A DNA stretch of 64,000 bases from a virus. Where the stretch lies: the UHGV virus genome UHGV-1364441. One strand, written 5' to 3'. Below are positions 9,780 to 54,120 of the stretch, one piece after another (position 1 is the stretch's first letter; every line of letters begins with the position of its first letter). The translations under genes were made by a program, and so were the position numbers. The notes beneath the pieces were generated by a model, which worked only from the letters and a program-made list of their open reading frames with translations, was not told where the DNA came from and made no database searches.

Positions 9780-10567
9780 TCGATCACTCCGTTTTGAGTC
9801 GTATCAAAATTCCTGGCAGGTATGCAGTAGTAAAGCGAACCAACATGCTGTGTGCCGTAGCTAAAAATACGGTGCACGTACCACCAGCGGCGGGCTACGC
9901 CGTTTACCATCTCTTCATTCCATTCAAGAATTGACCCGACGGGGACGTTATTTGCTGCAATACGCAGAATCAGAACATCATCGGTTAAGCCATCCTGCTC
10001 ACCGTCTGCGTCAATCGCATGGAAAGAGTCACGCCCGTCCGGGTTATCCAGCACATAAACGATTTCAGGTTCCTGGTAAGTCAGTTCGCGCTGGTTGTTA
10101 TCCAGTTCAGTGAATGACTCTTCTCCTGTTTCGTCGCTGACTACCCCATATGTGCCAACATCTGGTCGATATAAGAGAGCCTGAAACGCGTCTGGGCTGG
10201 ATTCAATAATCAGCATCCAGTCTGCGCGGATTTGGTCGTTAAAGGCTTTATGCCCGTTATAGCGCGCTTTTAGCTGTGGAGTTGGTTCTCTGCCTGCCAG
10301 GGAAGGTGGAAGTATGGCTATATCTGATTCGCCAGCATCTGGAGTAAGGCCACCGTTGCTATCAGCAAAATTATCATGGCTATCAGCTTTGGCGGCGGGT
10401 TGCTCTTCCAGAATGCTGAATGAATCCGAACTGGTATTGCCATGTTCCGGCGCGCCTCCTGCATTCGCTTCAATCGGCGCTGGCGTTTCTCTCTGCGTGC
10501 TGTCATGTTCTGACCCCTTACTTGCCAGGTTTGCATCGTCAGAAAACCATTCGTCAAAACGGCCCAT
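9776..10567 (-). CDS. Hypothetical acidic protein
   Basis: Start set at MGRFDEWF (GAGGA 6 nt upstream) rather than track start 10690. Confidence 0.45.
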   Translation of the reverse strand: MGRFDEWFSDDANLASKGSEHDSTQRETPAPIEANAGGAPEHGNTSSDSFSILEEQPAAKADSHDNFADSNGGLTPDAGESDIAILPPSLAGREPTPQLKARYNGHKAFNDQIRADWMLIIESSPDAFQALLYRPDVGTYGVVSDETGEESFTELDNNQRELTYQEPEIVYVLDNPDGRDSFHAIDADGEQDGLTDDVLILRIAANNVPVGSILEWNEEMVNGVARRWWYVHRIFSYGTQHVGSLYYCIPARNFDTTQNGVIE

Positions 10568-38097: not shown

Positions 38098-38490
38098 CTA
38101 CCAGCGAGATAAGCGAACGACGTGTTTTACCTTAGCGATCCACTTACCACGTGAGTTATTAATTACGGCCTGCGCCACCTTTAAGCTGACTTCAAAATCA
38201 GCCTTACGACCATCAGAATCCACCAGCGTTGCACCGTCTATTTCCGGCAGGCTTAAATAATCCTGTTCTACCTCTAATGGCATTGACGGCTCTCTGAATG
38301 GTGTCAATTGCCGAGCTTTCCAGATAAAGCGAACTCTCAATCCCCTATAAGCCATTACCATGTAGCCTGTTATCGTGCTCTTATGGCCTGCATCAGTACG
38401 CGCAGCATTACACGATACAATCTTACAGGTGACGATATTCCACTCCACGTTGGAGACTTCGTGAATGCTTAATTTTGTTGTCTCGTACAT
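38098..38490 (-). CDS. Hypothetical protein (130 aa)
   Basis: ORF coupled to the upstream gene. Confidence 0.45.
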   Translation of the reverse strand: MYETTKLSIHEVSNVEWNIVTCKIVSCNAARTDAGHKSTITGYMVMAYRGLRVRFIWKARQLTPFREPSMPLEVEQDYLSLPEIDGATLVDSDGRKADFEVSLKVAQAVINNSRGKWIAKVKHVVRLSRW

Positions 38491-39065
38491 CAGAATGCCT
38501 CCCAGTCAGTTGCGATAATATCCACGCCAGTTGCGAACCAGTCTGTCTGCGCCTGTAAATCCCCATTCATCATTACCAGGCGAGGCATAACCATCACATC
38601 GCACCCTTCCACAATATCGAATGCCTCTTCCGGCAAGAATTCGAAGAGCTTTTCTTTGCTGCCAATGCTGCCACGGAACATCGATAAATAGCTCCCTTTA
38701 GGCCATGATGCCCGGCGGGCATCCAGCCCCTTCATCATCCAGAACATGGCGGCAGAAAAATTGATGTTCTTTTTGGCGATGAAAACATTATTGGCTTCTG
38801 TTTGCTTCAGAAACTTAATTAGCCTTGCCATCGACTCGGATAACGCTACGTATGGCTCATGATTGGCTGCGGACACGCTCACACCATGTAATCCAACACT
38901 GACTACCGTCATATCGCCGCTTTGAGCGGTTTCAATGTTGACACCTTTGCGAACTAACGAGGCATAAAGTTCCTCTCGCTTTTGTGTCCAGCGTTCCCGC
39001 TGACCGATGAAGTCACTCAATATGAGGTCTGCTTCTGCATACGCGTTATCGTTCGCCGTTAACAT
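38490..39065 (-). CDS. Hypothetical protein with DUF2829-like segment
   Basis: AAMFWMMKGLDARRASWPKGSYL resembles the DUF2829 pattern of 30192-30854. Confidence 0.4.
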   Translation of the reverse strand: MLTANDNAYAEADLILSDFIGQRERWTQKREELYASLVRKGVNIETAQSGDMTVVSVGLHGVSVSAANHEPYVALSESMARLIKFLKQTEANNVFIAKKNINFSAAMFWMMKGLDARRASWPKGSYLSMFRGSIGSKEKLFEFLPEEAFDIVEGCDVMVMPRLVMMNGDLQAQTDWFATGVDIIATDWEAF

Positions 39066-39519
39066 AACGTCTCCTTTTTACACGCGCGACCATCCCTCGG
39101 TTAAACCGATAGAGATGTCGAAACTTCGTATTAATTAAGGGTTACAGCCTGAGCGGCTATATGATGAATTGAAAGGAGTTGTGGCGGTGGTGCCTCCACC
39201 TGCCAGGTCAGCCACGCCCGGCGACGACACTTATCAGAACCGCAATTAATGAAAATGGCTTCGTCACGAGCGCATAGCCGCAATTACCACAACGGAAACG
39301 GTGCTCACGCTAATTAAACGCCTTTTCCTGTTGTGCGCCGTGCTCTTCCGGCTGTCACACCGAATCGCCAGGGTGGTGAGTCCTCGGTCCGACGATATGA
39401 ACGGGGCTTGCACATTCCGGCTACCTGGTTTGTTGCCTGAGCTAGGGGAAAAGGTAACCCCTTTAACGTCACCAGACCGCTAACGACGCATGTGCCATAC
39501 GCCGTGTTACAACCAAATA

Positions 39520-39595
39520 TGGTGGCCCCTACCGGACTTGAACCGGTGACCGTGCGATTATGAGTCGCCAGCTCTAACCACTGAGCTAAAGGGCC
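39520..39595 (-). tRNA. tRNA-Ile2 (anticodon CAU, lysidine type) or tRNA-Met-like
   Basis: Manual fold: 7-bp acceptor stem, CCA encoded, anticodon loop CUCAUAA; close to E. coli ileX; one mismatch at the base of the anticodon stem. Confidence 0.75.
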
Positions 39596-39604
39596 AGATT
39601 ACTG

Positions 39605-39733
39605 TTAATTCCGCTTACGCTTTTTGCCAGAACCGCGTAAGGCTTTTGCCGCTTGCTCGATCCCATATGCAACCACCAGCAGAAATAAAAATGTCCAACC
39701 AGGGTTCTTATCGGCAAAGGCCCAAAAATCCAT
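39605..39733 (-). CDS. Possible 42-aa membrane peptide (MDFWAFADKNPGWTFLFLLVVAYGIEQAAKALRGSGKKRKRN)
   Basis: Own translation; one TM helix plus basic tail; weak RBS. Confidence 0.25.
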   Translation of the reverse strand: MDFWAFADKNPGWTFLFLLVVAYGIEQAAKALRGSGKKRKRN

Positions 39734-40007
39734 CACTTGCAGCTACCTTTTAAGACAAAACGCCATTGCTGTTAGATTGCGGTGCCTGGTGCCTCCAGGT
39801 GACGTTAACCAGTTAACAATTAACGCCGGGATGTTTGACTTCACTATTGAGGAAAATTGTTTTAACTGTTCCGCGTGCGCTTAGCCGCATTCACCGCAAT
39901 GGTAAGAGCACTTGGCTGGCTGGGCGGCGATGACGCCTGTACGCATTTGGTGATCCGGTTCTGCTTCCGGCATTCGCTTAATTAGCCAAATACTCTTAAC
40001 GTTGCGC

Positions 40008-40094
40008 TGGCGGAGAGTAATGGAATCGAACCATCATCGCTTGCGCAATGGGACGGTTTTCAAGACCGCTTGAGCACCATGCTCCCTACTCTCC
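40008..40094 (-). tRNA. tRNA-Ser (anticodon UGA), type II with long variable arm
   Basis: Manual fold: 7-bp acceptor, 3-bp D-stem, anticodon loop CUUGAAA, variable-arm hairpin with GCAA loop, T-loop TTCGATT, CCA encoded. Confidence 0.65.
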
Positions 40095-40478
40095 GGCCGT
40101 TGTGGTGGCCGGTACTGAATCTCCGGCATACGGTGCAGCCAATTAGGACTACGGACGATCACCGCTCGCGAAAGGGAAGGTTTGCGGCCGCATTTCCCTA
40201 ACATCCAAGAAAGCTATCGCATCAGTCTGCGAATCCACCACAACGTTGAGAACACTGGTTGTCACGCTGCAACGCAACATTTATTCGTAGATTGGGATAT
40301 GACCCCGTTACGTCAGTGTTCTCAACGTTGTAGTACCGGTTACGGTTCCGGCCAGGCCTCTTCCTCAACGGGGTATTCTCCATACGGACTACCGTTTATT
40401 GGTCGTTCCTGCGGTTTATGTTGTGAAGCCAGATGCTTATCTTCTGGTTGCTTCAAAGAGCTGCACTTCATCACAACG

Positions 40479-40552
40479 GTAAGGGTACTTCGTAGGGATT
40501 CGAACCCTCTGCCAAGCACGGCGATCTCCGACGTCGCAAAATACCCTTACCT
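40479..40552 (-). other. tRNA-like fragment or structured element (T-arm-like GGGTTCGAATCCC inside a 10-bp closing stem)
   Basis: Does not fold as a canonical cloverleaf (no D or anticodon arm in register, no CCA). Confidence 0.3.
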
Positions 40553-40559
40553 GTTGTGT

Positions 40560-40635
40560 TGGTGCCGATTAACGGACTCGAACCGCTGACATCCTGCTTA
40601 CAAGGCAGGCGCTCTACCAACTGAGCTAAACCGGC
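40560..40635 (-). tRNA. tRNA-Thr (anticodon UGU)
   Basis: Manual fold: canonical cloverleaf, anticodon loop CUUGUAA, CCA encoded. Confidence 0.85.
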
Positions 40636-40637
40636 AT

Positions 40638-40714
40638 TGGCGATGGTGGGTGGATTCGAACCACCGACCGACAGCTTAGAAGGCTGCTGCTCTATCCTAC
40701 TGAGCTACACCATC
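40638..40714 (-). tRNA. tRNA-Arg (anticodon UCU)
   Basis: Manual fold: canonical cloverleaf, anticodon loop CUUCUAA, CCA encoded; 2 nt from tRNA-Thr. Confidence 0.85.
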
Positions 40715-41220
40715 ACTTGCCGGGTACGTCTCCGGCGAGGGCTTCCACCTCCGTATGCTTTTCGGCGCACCGCGCCCTGGCTGCAATTCAGTAACAGGGG
40801 ATGCATAACCCTGGCTTCCAGCGTGATAAGCGCCTTCAGCATGACGGGATATACCCGTAACCAACAAACTTTCCCATATACCATCAAACAATGGCTGTTA
40901 CGCGGGAGGGACGTAACAGGTAAGGGCGCTGACCAGAAAGACCTGACCCTTCTCATTCATCTGGTTAATCACACCAGCGCCCTTGCCTGTTATGCCTCCC
41001 CGTTCCCTAATACACAGACGGGGTCACTCTGCGGTCGATTTTTTGACGGGGGACGACTCATACCCCGTGGCGTCTGGCTTCTTAGGCCGCTACCATCATC
41101 AGATCATCGTTTGCATTTACTTTAATGGTCGGTTTCTAAACCGCCGCAAAGCCGCTAACCATGACGAAAACCCTAAAAAAGCCCACCCGAAGATGGGCAA
41201 ATACGCTACATCTCACACAA

Positions 41221-41293
41221 GAAAGAAGCCGACTGCCTGAGCTGGATTCACTTTCAAATGCCCGCAGAAAGGGAACACAAGTCGGCTTCTTTC
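41221..41293. repeat. Perfect 14-bp inverted repeat GAAAGAAGCCGACT / AGTCGGCTTCTTTC with 45-nt spacer
   Basis: Read directly in the non-coding stretch. Confidence 0.5.
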
Positions 41294-41512
41294 TTGATGC
41301 GGCACTCTCTCCGCCCGTCACCGCTCTGTCTCGGTTGTCGCGTTTGCCACGCCAGCCATAACGAGGTTTAAAGTCTTTGCACGTTTCCATCACTCGACTG
41401 CCGTCTGTGGCTGTTCGTTGCAGCGGGGGTGCCTCCCCCTGGGGATATCCCCGGCCTTACCCCATTCTTTCAAGACACAATGCAAGGCCGCATCCGCATA
41501 GGTGCATTACCG

Positions 41513-41805: not shown

Positions 41806-41937
41806 TTATTTGCTGGTGGGCGAACAACAACCAATAAGTGACTATCAAGCCCAGCAAGCGAAATGTGGCAACGCTCCACCAGCAAGGAAAATTCTAAGTT
41901 AAGTTACTCTCACAATCAATATGTTCGTTTGGTGAAA

Positions 41938-53553: not shown

Positions 53554-53975
53554 CAGTGTGCCTCCGCAATTCCGGAATTGGTAATATTGCGATACCAAGG
53601 ATTAGTGTTTGGTTGTGATGAAGAAGAGAAACGGCCAGTAAGGACGCCATGTTGATCAGGGATCAGAGAACGGGCTTCTTTTTCAGTTGCGGCAATTGCG
53701 AAGTGATCACAGTGTTTTTGCAGGGAGTGGAAACGCCAGATAAATTCCGGGCGCGAGCAAGGATTGGCATTAACCATAGTTACGGCCTCATTCGTAGGTT
53801 TAACAACCTGCGCCCCGCTGCTAAACGGGTGGCAGGACGTGACGGGGTTAGCAGACTGGCACGAATGAAACCAGCAGGCCGAAGCCTCCCCATCACGCCC
53901 CACCATAATTCGGGCGTAACGTGGTTTTACGGACACAAAAATACCGCAATATCGGATATCTGCGGTTGTCCGCAT
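53553..53975 (-). CDS. Hypothetical protein upstream of the Rha-like gene
   Basis: Coupled ORF; an antisense ORF 53649-53993 competes, so the coding frame is uncertain. Confidence 0.3.
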   Translation of the reverse strand: MRTTADIRYCGIFVSVKPRYARIMVGRDGEASACWFHSCQSANPVTSCHPFSSGAQVVKPTNEAVTMVNANPCSRPEFIWRFHSLQKHCDHFAIAATEKEARSLIPDQHGVLTGRFSSSSQPNTNPWYRNITNSGIAEAH

Positions 53976-54120
53976 TCGTATTCAGGCTGCTAAACCCGGT
54001 CGCAGAATTTGCTACGACGACATGAATATAAGCCTGAAAACATGGAAGATCAACTAAAAATTTCAGCAATGGATGACTTCAGTCGATGATGCAGATCATA
54101 CATTCCGATTTAGAAACGGC

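What the first reader, a model, noticed from the sequence alone, without database searches (positions are those of the whole stretch)
39520..40714. Phage tRNA array for rare codons with an extra tRNA-like fragment
Four minus-strand tRNAs fold manually as canonical cloverleaves with encoded CCA: Arg(UCU), Thr(UGU), Ser(UGA) and Ile2(CAU). Arg-UCU and Ile2 decode AGA/AGG and AUA, rare in enterobacteria, and the set is a subset of the T4 tRNA complement. Between Thr and Ser lies a 74-nt element with a canonical T-arm sequence enclosed by a perfect 10-bp stem that does not fold as a normal tRNA. The Ile2 gene has a G-A mismatch at the base of its anticodon stem.
Basis: seen in the sequence. Interest (0 to 1): 0.5.

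Follow-up and report, generated by a model that had tools for sequence, protein, structure and literature searches.

The report
Phage tRNA cluster with tRNA-mimic hairpin
A P1/D6-like plasmid-phage carries four real tRNA genes interleaved with repeated structured-RNA modules, and the "extra tRNA fragment" belongs to a widespread, unannotated family of long hairpins with interchangeable inserts, here a miniature tRNA without an anticodon arm.

Summary
ARAGORN and Rfam confirm four minus-strand tRNAs with encoded CCA: Arg-UCU, Thr-UGU, Ser-UGA and CAU/Ile2. The window is a P1/P7/D6-like phage-plasmid, and this is its known tRNA cluster.

Three corrections apply:
- Arg-UCU sits in the slot where P1, P7 and D6 have Asn-GUU. 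It keeps that gene's acceptor stem, D stem and T arm, so it looks like a chimera.
- Ser is not canonical. It scores as a near-threshold tRNA-Sec look-alike, consistent with the 8/4 tRNA-Ser class reported in phages.
- The 74-nt element lies at 40478-40551, and its stem is about 21 bp, not 10.

The element is not a stray fragment. It is one member of a large hairpin family with a conserved, covarying 19-bp stem and a bulged A. That stem carries at least 27 unrelated inserts, in P1-like plasmids and in lambdoid prophages. At least 10 insert lineages contain a T-arm. The strand asymmetry of folding points to an RNA-level structure.

These hairpins alternate with STnc100-like sRNA modules and with the tRNAs in a noncoding leader of about 2.2 kb. 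The function is untested. My best guess is a processing scaffold that releases a stable tRNA mimic.

The parts
40638..40714 (-). tRNA-Arg(UCU) with A20, G73 and encoded CCA. It occupies the slot where P1, P7 and D6 have tRNA-Asn(GUU).
   Evidence: ARAGORN. Rfam 72.1 bits. Alignment with D6 and P7 shows an identical acceptor stem and flanks but a different D-loop and anticodon arm. Alleles listed.
40560..40635 (-). tRNA-Thr(UGU), the constant member of the P1-family array.
   Evidence: ARAGORN. Rfam 72.9 bits. Identical in D6 and one base different in P7.
40472..40558 (-). Scaffold hairpin H1-A: CACAAC, bulged A, GGUAAGGGUAUUUU(G) pairing with (C)GAAGUACCCUUACC and GUUGUG. It encloses the 74-nt element of the finding (40478-40551).
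   Evidence: Fold, z = -5.3. 55 distinct family variants pair at 19 positions. Covariation count on the type-A lineage.
40494..40508 (-). T-arm of the insert: AGGG, UUCGAAU, CCCU. It lies two bases (AC) upstream of the 3' strand of the scaffold stem.
   Evidence: Motif search, 5 hits against 0.23 expected. Segmentation. A second lineage has GCGG, UUCGAUU, CCGC.
40521..40537 (-). D-arm-like hairpin of the insert: GCGA, CGUCGGAGA, UCGC, with a 9-nt loop containing GG. It is followed by a 12-nt linker in place of the anticodon arm.
   Evidence: Segmentation. The L178 lineage has GCAU, AUCUGGGAA, AUGC, with two pairs changed on both sides. This arm is not in the minimum-energy fold.
40336..40471 (-). 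Module a. It begins GUGAUGAAG, as the STnc100-like modules begin, and ends in a CCGG..CCGG hairpin. It shows no significant fold of its own.
   Evidence: Sequence. Fold z = +0.4. Motif comparison with lambdoid units.
40236..40335 (-). Second long hairpin (H1-b), with a 22-bp stem.
   Evidence: Fold -50.9 kcal/mol, z = -7.7.
40096..40243 (-). Module b. It is closed by UUGUGGUGG pairing with CCACCACAA, with a 3' hairpin GCCGG..CCGGC. It ends exactly at the 5' end of tRNA-Ser.
   Evidence: Fold. The closing helix covaries across the family.
40008..40094 (-). tRNA-Ser(UGA), non-canonical. It has a possible 8-bp acceptor stem and 4-bp T stem, a long D stem with a tiny loop, a 6-bp variable arm with a GCAA loop, and G73.
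   Evidence: ARAGORN. tRNA-Sec model 46.6 bits against a gathering score of 47. D6 record note. 8/4 tRNA-Ser reported in phages (PMC5389517).
39901..40000 (-). Third scaffold hairpin (H1-c). Its insert is homologous to the region downstream of tRNA-Ser in the rV5-like phage phita32.
   Evidence: Fold z = -3.4. phita32 sequence. Identical in D6.
39778..39898 (-). Module c, an STnc100-like core.
   Evidence: Rfam RF02076, 38.5 bits against a gathering score of 47, E = 2e-6, model positions 31-147 of 206. Fold z = -2.6.
39605..39736 (-). Small membrane-type ORF of 43 aa, like tciC/upf69.6. The window lacks the tciA and tciB genes of D6.
   Evidence: ORF list. Alignment with D6. P1 and P7 annotation.
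39520..39595 (-). tRNA(CAU), read as tRNA-Ile2. It has C4-G69 and C5-G68, and a G27-A43 mismatch.
   Evidence: ARAGORN. Rfam 64.7 bits with the mismatch flagged. The P1 homologue is annotated trnI, 89% identical to ileX.
40904..41000 (-). Related long hairpin upstream of tRNA-Arg (H1-0): UAACAGGCAAGGGCGCUGG pairing with CCAGCGCCCUUACCUGUUA-type arms.
   Evidence: Motif search. Fold -50.4 kcal/mol, z = -5.6. A hairpin opening with the same motif and a near-identical 5' arm and loop was counted at 67 sites in the fetched loci.
39288..39335 (-). Weak, short scaffold-like hairpin downstream of the CAU tRNA.
   Evidence: Motif search. Fold z = -1.9, not significant.

Best explanation
The region is the tRNA cluster of a P1/P7/D6-type phage-plasmid. 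It lies in a noncoding leader of about 2.2 kb that is read on the minus strand.

The four tRNAs are genuine. They most plausibly supply AGA/AGG, ACA, UCA and AUA, all of which the phage's genes use more than E. coli genes do.

The 74-nt element is neither a tRNA nor a stray remnant. It is the insert of a conserved RNA scaffold hairpin: 6 bp, a bulged A, then 13-15 bp. In E. coli temperate phages this hairpin precedes STnc100-like sRNA modules and alternates with tRNAs. The scaffold carries interchangeable inserts. Here the insert is a tRNA-derived mini-tRNA with a T-arm next to the 3' strand of the stem (as a T-arm stacks on an acceptor stem), a D-arm-like hairpin, and a 12-nt linker in place of the anticodon arm.

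Inferred mechanism, not shown: the leader is made as one transcript. The long stems act as cutting points, for RNase III and/or the tRNA-processing enzymes. Cutting separates the tRNAs, the sRNA modules and the hairpin tops, and releases a stable tRNA-shaped small RNA whose target is unknown.
For: Shown:
- tRNAs.
- Family context: 96% identity to D6 and 93% to P7. Annotated tRNA clusters in P1, P7 and D6. C4 RNA of the P1 immunity region in the window.
- Scaffold family: 55 distinct variants in 27 insert clusters. Pairs 13-19 were not fully fixed by my search pattern (15-19 free on both strands), yet they form in at least 52 of 55 variants, with several pair types.
- On the type-A lineage, 97% of cells are paired and 4 pairs change on both sides. 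The covariation score is 0.174, against 0.085 +/- 0.011 in shuffles (0 of 500 reach it) and at most 0.066 when partners are slid.
- The sense strand folds better than the antisense in 53 of 55 variants (p = 2e-10). This fits G-U pairs, and so an RNA in the tRNA orientation.
- Three further strong hairpins lie in the same leader (z = -5.6, -7.7, -3.4).
- T-arms recur in at least 10 unrelated inserts, almost always directly next to the 3' strand of the scaffold.
- The D-like and T stems differ by compensated pairs between the type-A and L178 lineages.
- Type A is present in 464 of 5426 complete E. coli genomes and is unannotated.
- Most hairpins are followed by GUGGUGAAU-type modules. The closing helix of those modules covaries with its 3' partner.
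- Codon usage.
Against: - There is no expression or cleavage data for this element.
- The tRNA-like fold of the insert is not the minimum-energy fold (-32.1 against -39.7 kcal/mol). Within the type-A lineage the D-like and T stems never vary, so they say nothing either way.
- The A and L178 inserts might derive from different tRNAs. In that case their compensated pairs would be inherited rather than selected here.
- P1 itself lacks the element, and P7 has a shorter unrelated insert, so the element is dispensable.
- Modules a and b show no significant fold of their own.
- The STnc100 match is below Rfam's gathering score.
- No match to the P1 C1-operator consensus was found in the window, so control of transcription is unverified here.
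Confidence: 0.6

Rival explanations
1. The element is a dead tRNA remnant. Recombination between tRNA genes in the array deleted the anticodon arm, and the piece persists as neutral sequence inside a hairpin whose only function, if any, lies in the stem.
For: - Recombination chimeras between array tRNAs do exist: an Asn-5'/Thr-3' fusion in L100 and a 79-nt Asn/Thr chimera.
- P1 lacks the element and P7 has a different 55-nt insert.
- Inserts are swapped wholesale.
- The tRNA-like fold is not the minimum-energy fold.
Against: - T-arms recur in at least 10 unrelated inserts, almost always in the same position, directly next to the 3' strand of the scaffold.
- Two lineages share a 9-nt GG-containing D-like loop and a 12-13-nt linker, while their stems differ by compensated pairs.
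- In the type-A lineage, variation is concentrated in the linker loop while both arms stay invariant.
Confidence: 0.2
2. The insert is a decoy. It is a tRNA-shaped RNA, made together with the tRNAs, that titrates a host factor recognising the tRNA elbow. Such a factor could be a tRNA-cleaving defence or toxin nuclease, or a tRNA-binding sensor.
For: - The first protein gene downstream of the leader has a Tad2-like anti-defence domain (PF11195, E = 1.5e-9).
- The tRNA set is shuffled between relatives: Asn or Arg, with or without Tyr, with or without Ser.
- In lambdoid relatives, the module after the hairpin copies 16S rRNA helix 11, with two flipped base pairs. Mimicry of host stable RNAs may therefore be a theme.
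Against: The case is circumstantial. No target is known. The element has no free CCA end and no anticodon loop, which are the usual targets of tRNA nucleases. The 16S-like segment is absent from this window.
Confidence: 0.15
3. The conserved inverted repeats act at the DNA level, as recombination sites or cassette boundaries through which inserts and modules are exchanged. This would resemble integron attC sites or the linker sequences of lambdoid phages.
For: - Units are bounded by CACAAC repeats.
- Relative to the SSU5-like phage Cyrano, where Asn, Thr and Ser are contiguous, the block between Thr and Ser looks like an insertion flanked by ACACAA(C/T).
- Type A and type B hairpins occur in tandem.
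- Inserts differ wholesale while the flanks stay conserved.
Against: - Folding is strongly strand-asymmetric, in 53 of 55 variants. G-U pairs become A-C mismatches on the other strand.
- The core hexamers match the attC consensus RYYYAAC / GTTRRRY at only 5 of 7 positions (read directly from the sequence).
- No matching recombinase is known.
- DNA exchange at conserved flanks can coexist with an RNA function.
Confidence: 0.07
4. The element is an unusual but functional tRNA.
For: It has a canonical T-loop and a long terminal helix.
Against: - It has no anticodon arm and no discriminator-CCA end.
- ARAGORN gives no call even at 80% of its threshold.
- No tRNA-clan Rfam hit at E<=10.
Confidence: 0.01

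Closest known systems
tRNA cluster of the P1 / P7 / D6 'ban operon' leader (trnA-Asn, trnT-Thr, trnI-Ile2; Ser in P7 and D6)
   Same: Same locus, strand and order. 93-96% DNA identity. Thr, Ser and CAU/Ile2 are near-identical.
   Different: - Slot 1 holds Arg(UCU) instead of Asn(GUU). No record in the phage collection has this allele. About 59 plasmids match the Arg-Thr-hairpin stretch at 95% identity or better.
- tciA and tciB are absent.
- As in D6, the operon continues into a Tad2-like gene, where P1 has ban.
(8/4) tRNA-Ser / allo-tRNA group (Mukai et al. 2017, PMC5389517)
   Same: Near-threshold hit to the tRNA-Sec model, long variable arm, G73, long D stem with a tiny loop, and a sequence that allows an 8-bp acceptor stem with a 4-bp T stem. 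That paper reports this class in bacteriophages.
   Different: The eighth acceptor pair (A8-U) never varies in the 15 alleles seen. The choice between 8/4 and 7/5 therefore rests on sequence logic, not on covariation.
STnc100 (Rfam RF02076) and PasD prophage Hfq-dependent sRNAs (bioRxiv 10.64898/2026.05.13.724894; PMC8550237)
   Same: The modules that follow the scaffold hairpins match the STnc100 core, at 38.5 bits in the window and 37.4 in L024. They lie in phage leader regions near tRNAs, as those papers describe for STnc100 and PasD.
   Different: - The scores are below the gathering score, and only model positions 31-147 align.
- The hairpin lies outside the Rfam model, because the alignment starts just after it.
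- I could not show that hairpin plus module equals PasD.
Phage T4 stable RNAs 'species 1 and 2' (rnaC, rnaD) in the T4 tRNA cluster (from memory)
   Same: Small stable RNAs with tRNA-like features, encoded among phage tRNA genes, with function still unknown.
   Different: No sequence relation was tested or is expected. The T4 RNAs are not built on a shared hairpin scaffold with exchangeable inserts.
tRNA-like processing signals: MALAT1 mascRNA (PMC8457004) and plant mitochondrial t-elements (the latter from memory)
   Same: A tRNA-shaped element inside a longer transcript, with an extended acceptor-like helix and a single bulged A on the 5' strand.
   Different: These are eukaryotic or organellar. 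Here the helix is 19-21 bp, far beyond the 12-bp acceptor/T length that RNase P measures, so the same mechanism cannot simply be assumed.
YrlA, the bacterial Y RNA with a tRNA-like domain (Rfam RF02553)
   Same: A long terminal stem plus a tRNA-like module. As I recall it, relatives occur in phages near tRNAs.
   Different: No Rfam hit over the element; the only YrlA hit, 24.4 bits, spans the Arg/Thr junction. The topology also differs: in YrlA the long stem continues the anticodon stem, whereas here it continues the acceptor/T stack.

Membership tests
Canonical tRNA (for the 74-nt element) | Cloverleaf with an anticodon arm, detected by tRNA finders | tested here: not met
   ARAGORN gives no call at default, 90% or 80% of its threshold. 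No tRNA-clan hit at E<=10. Only a 12-nt linker separates the D-like arm from the T arm.
Canonical tRNA (for the 74-nt element) | T-arm with a TPsiC-type loop | tested here: met
   AGGG, UUCGAAU, CCCU. The motif GGTTCRANTCC occurs 5 times in the window against 0.23 expected.
Canonical tRNA (for the 74-nt element) | 7-bp acceptor stem ending in a discriminator base and CCA | tested here: not met
   The stem runs on for about 21 bp and is followed by GUGAUGAAG. There is no CCA.
P1-family tRNA cluster | Synteny and sequence identity with the P1, P7 and D6 locus | tested here: met
   96.2% identity to D6 and 93.2% to P7 over 85-89% of the region. Same tRNA order.
P1-family tRNA cluster | First tRNA is Asn(GUU) | tested here: not met
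   Arg(UCU) here. Among the fetched loci the first slot is Asn in about 85 arrays and Arg in 19.
tRNA-Arg | ArgRS identity elements A20, C35, U36 and G/A73 (established knowledge) | tested here: met
   The D-loop AGUAGGAUA gains A20 relative to the Asn allele. The anticodon is UCU and the discriminator is G73.
(8/4) tRNA-Ser / allo-tRNA | [quoted passage not shown] | tested here: met
   RF01852 46.6 bits (gathering score 47), with the lower-scoring tRNA-model match suppressed. Variable arm CAUUGC, GCAA, GCGAUG, and G73. Criteria taken from PMC5389517.
(8/4) tRNA-Ser / allo-tRNA | 8-bp acceptor stem with a 4-bp T stem | tested here: inconclusive
   GGAGAGUA pairing with UACUCUCC, and AUGG pairing with CCAU, are both possible. 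A8 would be abnormal in a 7/5 fold. However, the pair never varies in 15 alleles.
tRNA-Ile2 (lysidine tRNA) | CAU anticodon plus homology to ileX and trnI; C4-G69 and C5-G68 (TilS determinants, from memory) | tested here: met
   CAU. The P1 homologue is annotated trnI, 89% identical to ileX. The acceptor stem GGCCCUU pairs with AGGGGCC.
tRNA-Ile2 (lysidine tRNA) | Lysidine at position 34, reading AUA | not testable with these tools
   This needs RNA mass spectrometry or genetics.
STnc100 (RF02076), for module c at 39778-39898 | Score at or above Rfam's gathering score over the full model | tested here: not met
   38.5 bits against 47. Only model positions 31-147 of 206 align.
YrlA / Y RNA | Match to RF02553 over the element | tested here: not met
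   No hit over 40472-40558.
RNase III processing hairpin | About two turns (20 bp or more) of near-continuous double-stranded RNA in a transcript | tested here: met
   19-21 bp, with one bulged A and, in the lambdoid forms, one U-U mismatch.
RNase III processing hairpin | Cleavage by RNase III | not testable with these tools
   This needs in vitro cleavage, or comparison of rnc and wild-type RNA ends.
Integron attC site | Core sites RYYYAAC and GTTRRRY, and an integron integrase | tested here: not met
   ACACAAC and GTTGTGA match at 5 of 7 positions (read from the sequence). Folding asymmetry points to RNA. I did not search for an integrase.

The most novel reading that the evidence does not exclude
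E. coli temperate phages, both P1-like plasmids and lambdoids, carry a common RNA 'display' scaffold with neighbouring modules that present mimics of host stable RNAs. One mimic is an anticodon-less tRNA elbow, as in this window. Another is 16S rRNA helix 11, seen in lambdoid relatives. These RNAs are made together with phage tRNAs and anti-defence genes. They would act as decoys against RNA-targeting host defences, or as sponges for host RNA-binding proteins.
Probability: 0.15. Interest if true: 0.85.

Novelty: new variant of a known kind. Interest (0 to 1): 0.5.

Why it matters
The tRNAs themselves are ordinary for this phage family.

What is new is that the stretches between them are not junk. 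They form an ordered array of conserved hairpins and sRNA-like modules, present in about 9% of complete E. coli genomes and in many lambdoid prophages. No record I examined annotates them.

A shared stem carrying dozens of unrelated inserts is the pattern expected of a fast-evolving specificity or arms-race element, and several of the inserts are tRNA-shaped. It also connects to an old puzzle: what are the tRNA-like stable RNAs in phage tRNA clusters for?

The elements are short and sit in tractable phages (P1, P7, D6, lambda-like), so the question can be tested directly.

Tried and rejected
- **Rfam on the element.** No family matches it on the sense strand. The mir-, snoRNA- and plastid-family hits only reflect hairpin shape or tRNA antisense.
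- **tmRNA.** ARAGORN tmRNA mode finds nothing. The permuted-tmRNA hit at 41082-41136 (23.6 bits) was treated as chance.
- **Donor of the Arg tRNA body.** The body is 88-91% identical to generic phage tRNA-Arg(UCU) genes, including cyanophage ones. No specific donor emerged.
- **Coding.** The ORFs that overlap the element (135 aa on the plus strand, 59 aa on the minus strand) have no Pfam match.
- **Equating hairpin plus module with PasD.** A lambdoid unit matched only partially in a few unrelated phage records and gave no match to the phage record that the preprint names as carrying pasD. The preprint's supplement holds no matching sequence.
- **Literature.** Full-text sequence searches for the scaffold motifs found only unrelated papers. 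The P1 genome paper was not available under the PMC id I recalled.
- **P1 C1 operator.** The consensus, as I recalled it, has no match in the window with up to 3 mismatches.
- **RNase P ruler idea.** The distance from the T stem to the conserved part of the scaffold varies from 5 to 8 nt between inserts (my reading of the sequences). No fixed ruler exists.
- **3' partner search.** Only the perfect Watson-Crick covarying cases count.
Full report
**What the window is.** Rfam finds the C4 antisense RNA and its a1/b1 targets at 53825-54031. These are hallmarks of the P1 immunity region. The finding's region matches phage D6 at 96% identity, P7 at 93% and P1 at about 94% over 60% of its length. In those records the locus is the leader of the 'ban operon'. 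It holds tRNA-Asn and tRNA-Thr, then the tci genes, then trnI (Ile2). P7 and D6 also have a tRNA-Ser.

**The tRNAs.**
- Thr, Arg and CAU score 65-73 bits with the Rfam tRNA model.
- The CAU tRNA is the P1 trnI homologue, annotated as Ile2 and 89% identical to ileX.
- Ser is not canonical. It fails the tRNA model at gathering score and scores 46.6 bits on tRNA-Sec, whose gathering score is 47. The D6 record says tRNAscan-SE could not name its amino acid.
- Ser's features are a possible 8-bp acceptor stem with a 4-bp T stem, a long D stem with a tiny loop, a long variable arm and G73. These fit the 8/4 tRNA-Ser class that Mukai et al. found in phages (PMC5389517). The eighth pair never varies in 15 alleles, so 8/4 is likely but unproven.

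**The Arg tRNA.**
- It sits where P1, P7 and D6 have Asn(GUU), with identical flanks and acceptor stem.
- It is closest to a second, SSU5-type Asn allele. It shares that allele's acceptor stem, D stem and T arm, and differs mainly in the D-loop (gaining A20) and the anticodon arm.
- No phage record has this allele. About 59 plasmids match the Arg-Thr-hairpin stretch at 95% identity or better.
- The body resembles generic phage Arg(UCU) tRNAs. I read it as a recombinant or remoulded tRNA.
- The array is combinatorial among relatives: Asn or Arg, with or without Tyr, then Thr, with or without Ser, then Ile2.
- Codon counts in 44 window ORFs fit a supply role. The E. coli reference values come from memory.

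**The 74-nt element.**
- It lies at 40478-40551. The stem is not 10 bp. It is 14-15 bp, then a bulged A, then 6 more pairs, spanning 40472-40558. A slightly wider stretch (40470-40562) folds with z = -5.3.
- D6 has the same element with one loop change. P7 keeps the stem, with one compensated pair, but has a different 55-nt interior. Some plasmids carry both versions in tandem.

**The hairpin family.**
- Scanning viral contigs with the stem motif gave 55 distinct variants falling into 27 unrelated insert clusters. They occur in P1-like elements and in lambdoid prophages.
- The 19-bp stem is kept throughout. Pairs 13-19 were not fully fixed by my search pattern (15-19 free on both strands), yet they form in at least 52 of 55 variants with several pair types.
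- On the type-A lineage, 97% of cells are paired and four pairs change on both sides. The covariation score is 0.174, against 0.085 in shuffles (0 of 500 reach it) and at most 0.066 when partners are slid.
- The tRNA-sense strand folds better than the antisense in 53 of 55 variants. The structure therefore acts as RNA, or as a single strand, in the tRNA orientation.

**tRNA-likeness of the insert.**
- GGTTCRANTCC occurs five times in the window: the four tRNAs and this element, against 0.23 expected.
- A targeted scan found at least 10 unrelated inserts with such a T-arm. In almost all of them it sits directly next to the 3' strand of the scaffold, as a T-arm stacks on an acceptor stem.
- The type-A and L178 lineages share a layout: a 4-bp D-like stem, a 9-nt loop with GG, a 12-13-nt linker, and a 4-bp T stem. 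Two D pairs and two T pairs are changed on both sides between them.
- Within type A, variation sits in the linker.
- Caveats: this fold is not the minimum-energy fold, and the two lineages could descend from different tRNAs.

**The wider architecture on the minus strand.** The order is as follows:
1. Hairpin H1-0
2. tRNA-Arg
3. tRNA-Thr
4. Hairpin H1-A
5. Module a
6. Hairpin H1-b, with a 22-bp stem (z = -7.7)
7. Module b, which ends at the 5' end of tRNA-Ser
8. tRNA-Ser
9. Hairpin H1-c
10. Module c, with an STnc100-like core (38.5 bits, below the gathering score)
11. A small ORF
12. tRNA-Ile2

Further points:
- In lambdoid prophages the same hairpin-plus-module unit sits just after a promoter and terminator pair that looks like pR'/tR'.
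- In one lambdoid locus the module carries a true T-arm next to an acceptor-like GUGGUG/CACCAC helix, followed by a real tRNA.
- The closing helix of the modules covaries with its 3' partner, and it shares bases with the basal helix of the hairpin. The two helices therefore compete.
- STnc100 and PasD are described as Hfq-dependent prophage sRNAs of unknown function.
- In the SSU5-like phage Cyrano, Asn, Thr and Ser are contiguous. The block between Thr and Ser in P1-like phages therefore looks like an insertion.

**Interpretation.**
- Shown: the tRNAs are real, and the element belongs to a conserved RNA hairpin family with exchangeable inserts, often tRNA-shaped.
- Inferred: the leader is co-transcribed, the long stems are cut, and a stable tRNA mimic is released.
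- Unknown: what the mimic does.
- A decoy role is suggested only by context. That context is a Tad2-like gene downstream, the shuffled tRNA sets, and a 16S helix-11 copy in lambdoid modules.

**Novelty.** The tRNA cluster is known, and the Arg allele and the 8/4-like Ser are variants of known kinds. I found no description of the scaffold family in Rfam, in the GenBank or RefSeq records examined, or in the papers I could search. My literature access was limited.

Noticed in passing
L029, L030, L121 (lambdoid viral contigs), in the module just after the scaffold hairpin: A 40-51-nt stretch matches E. coli 16S rRNA nt 243-293 (helix 11) at 75-85% identity (E = 2e-5 to 5e-9). Two base pairs are flipped, UAGGUG..CACCUA becoming AUGGUG..CACCAU, so the helix is kept. 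It looks like a phage-encoded rRNA mimic. It is absent from this window.
   Followed up: partly
window 38490-39065 (-): The first protein gene after the tRNA/ncRNA leader has a Tad2-like (Thoeris anti-defence 2) domain, PF11195, 38.7 bits. D6-type phages have this gene where P1 has ban.
   Followed up: partly
window 53825-53910 and 53979-54031 (-): C4 antisense RNA and its a1/b1 target sites, both above Rfam's gathering score. This is the P1-type immI immunity region.
   Followed up: no
window 40638-40714 (-), compared with L001, L002 and L206: The Arg(UCU) tRNA shares its acceptor stem, D stem and T arm with a tRNA-Asn allele. It differs in the D-loop and anticodon arm, which is an apparent identity switch or chimera at a fixed slot.
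   Followed up: partly
L100 (about 10370-10420, minus strand) and one ARAGORN allele of 79 nt: Fusions of the tRNA-Asn 5' part to the tRNA-Thr T-arm and 3' end through GCGGTT microhomology. They show that tRNAs in the array recombine with each other.
   Followed up: no
L207 (phage phita32) 1385-1483 and 1490-1580, minus strand: An rV5-like phage has a 99-nt odd tRNA-like call with a 4-base 'anticodon'. Downstream of its tRNA-Ser lies a structured element homologous to the insert of window hairpin H1-c (39901-40000), enclosed by a different stem and showing a compensated pair.
   Followed up: partly
L005 1770-2050; L015 11957-12172: Type A (T-arm) and type B (P7-type) hairpins occur in tandem, separated by a 129-nt module of the STnc100-like kind (GUGAUGAAUG...GCCGGAGAUCAGCACCGGUCAUCAC).
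   Followed up: partly
window 41181-41300 (-): Upstream of the array lies a terminator-like hairpin, GCCCATCTTCGGGTGGGC followed by a run of T. It sits roughly where P1 annotates a 'dicF-like region'. A promoter-like site lies at 41891-41919.
   Followed up: no
window 39778-39898 compared with L001 (D6): Between the window and D6, the differences in the STnc100-like module cluster in one unpaired stretch (CAATTTTCCTCAATAGTGAAG against CAATCCTCCTTAGTGGTTAAG). That is the pattern expected of a variable seed region.
   Followed up: no
window 39605-39736 (-): Compared with D6, the window has lost tciA and tciB. It keeps only the third small membrane-type ORF, like tciC/upf69.6.
   Followed up: yes
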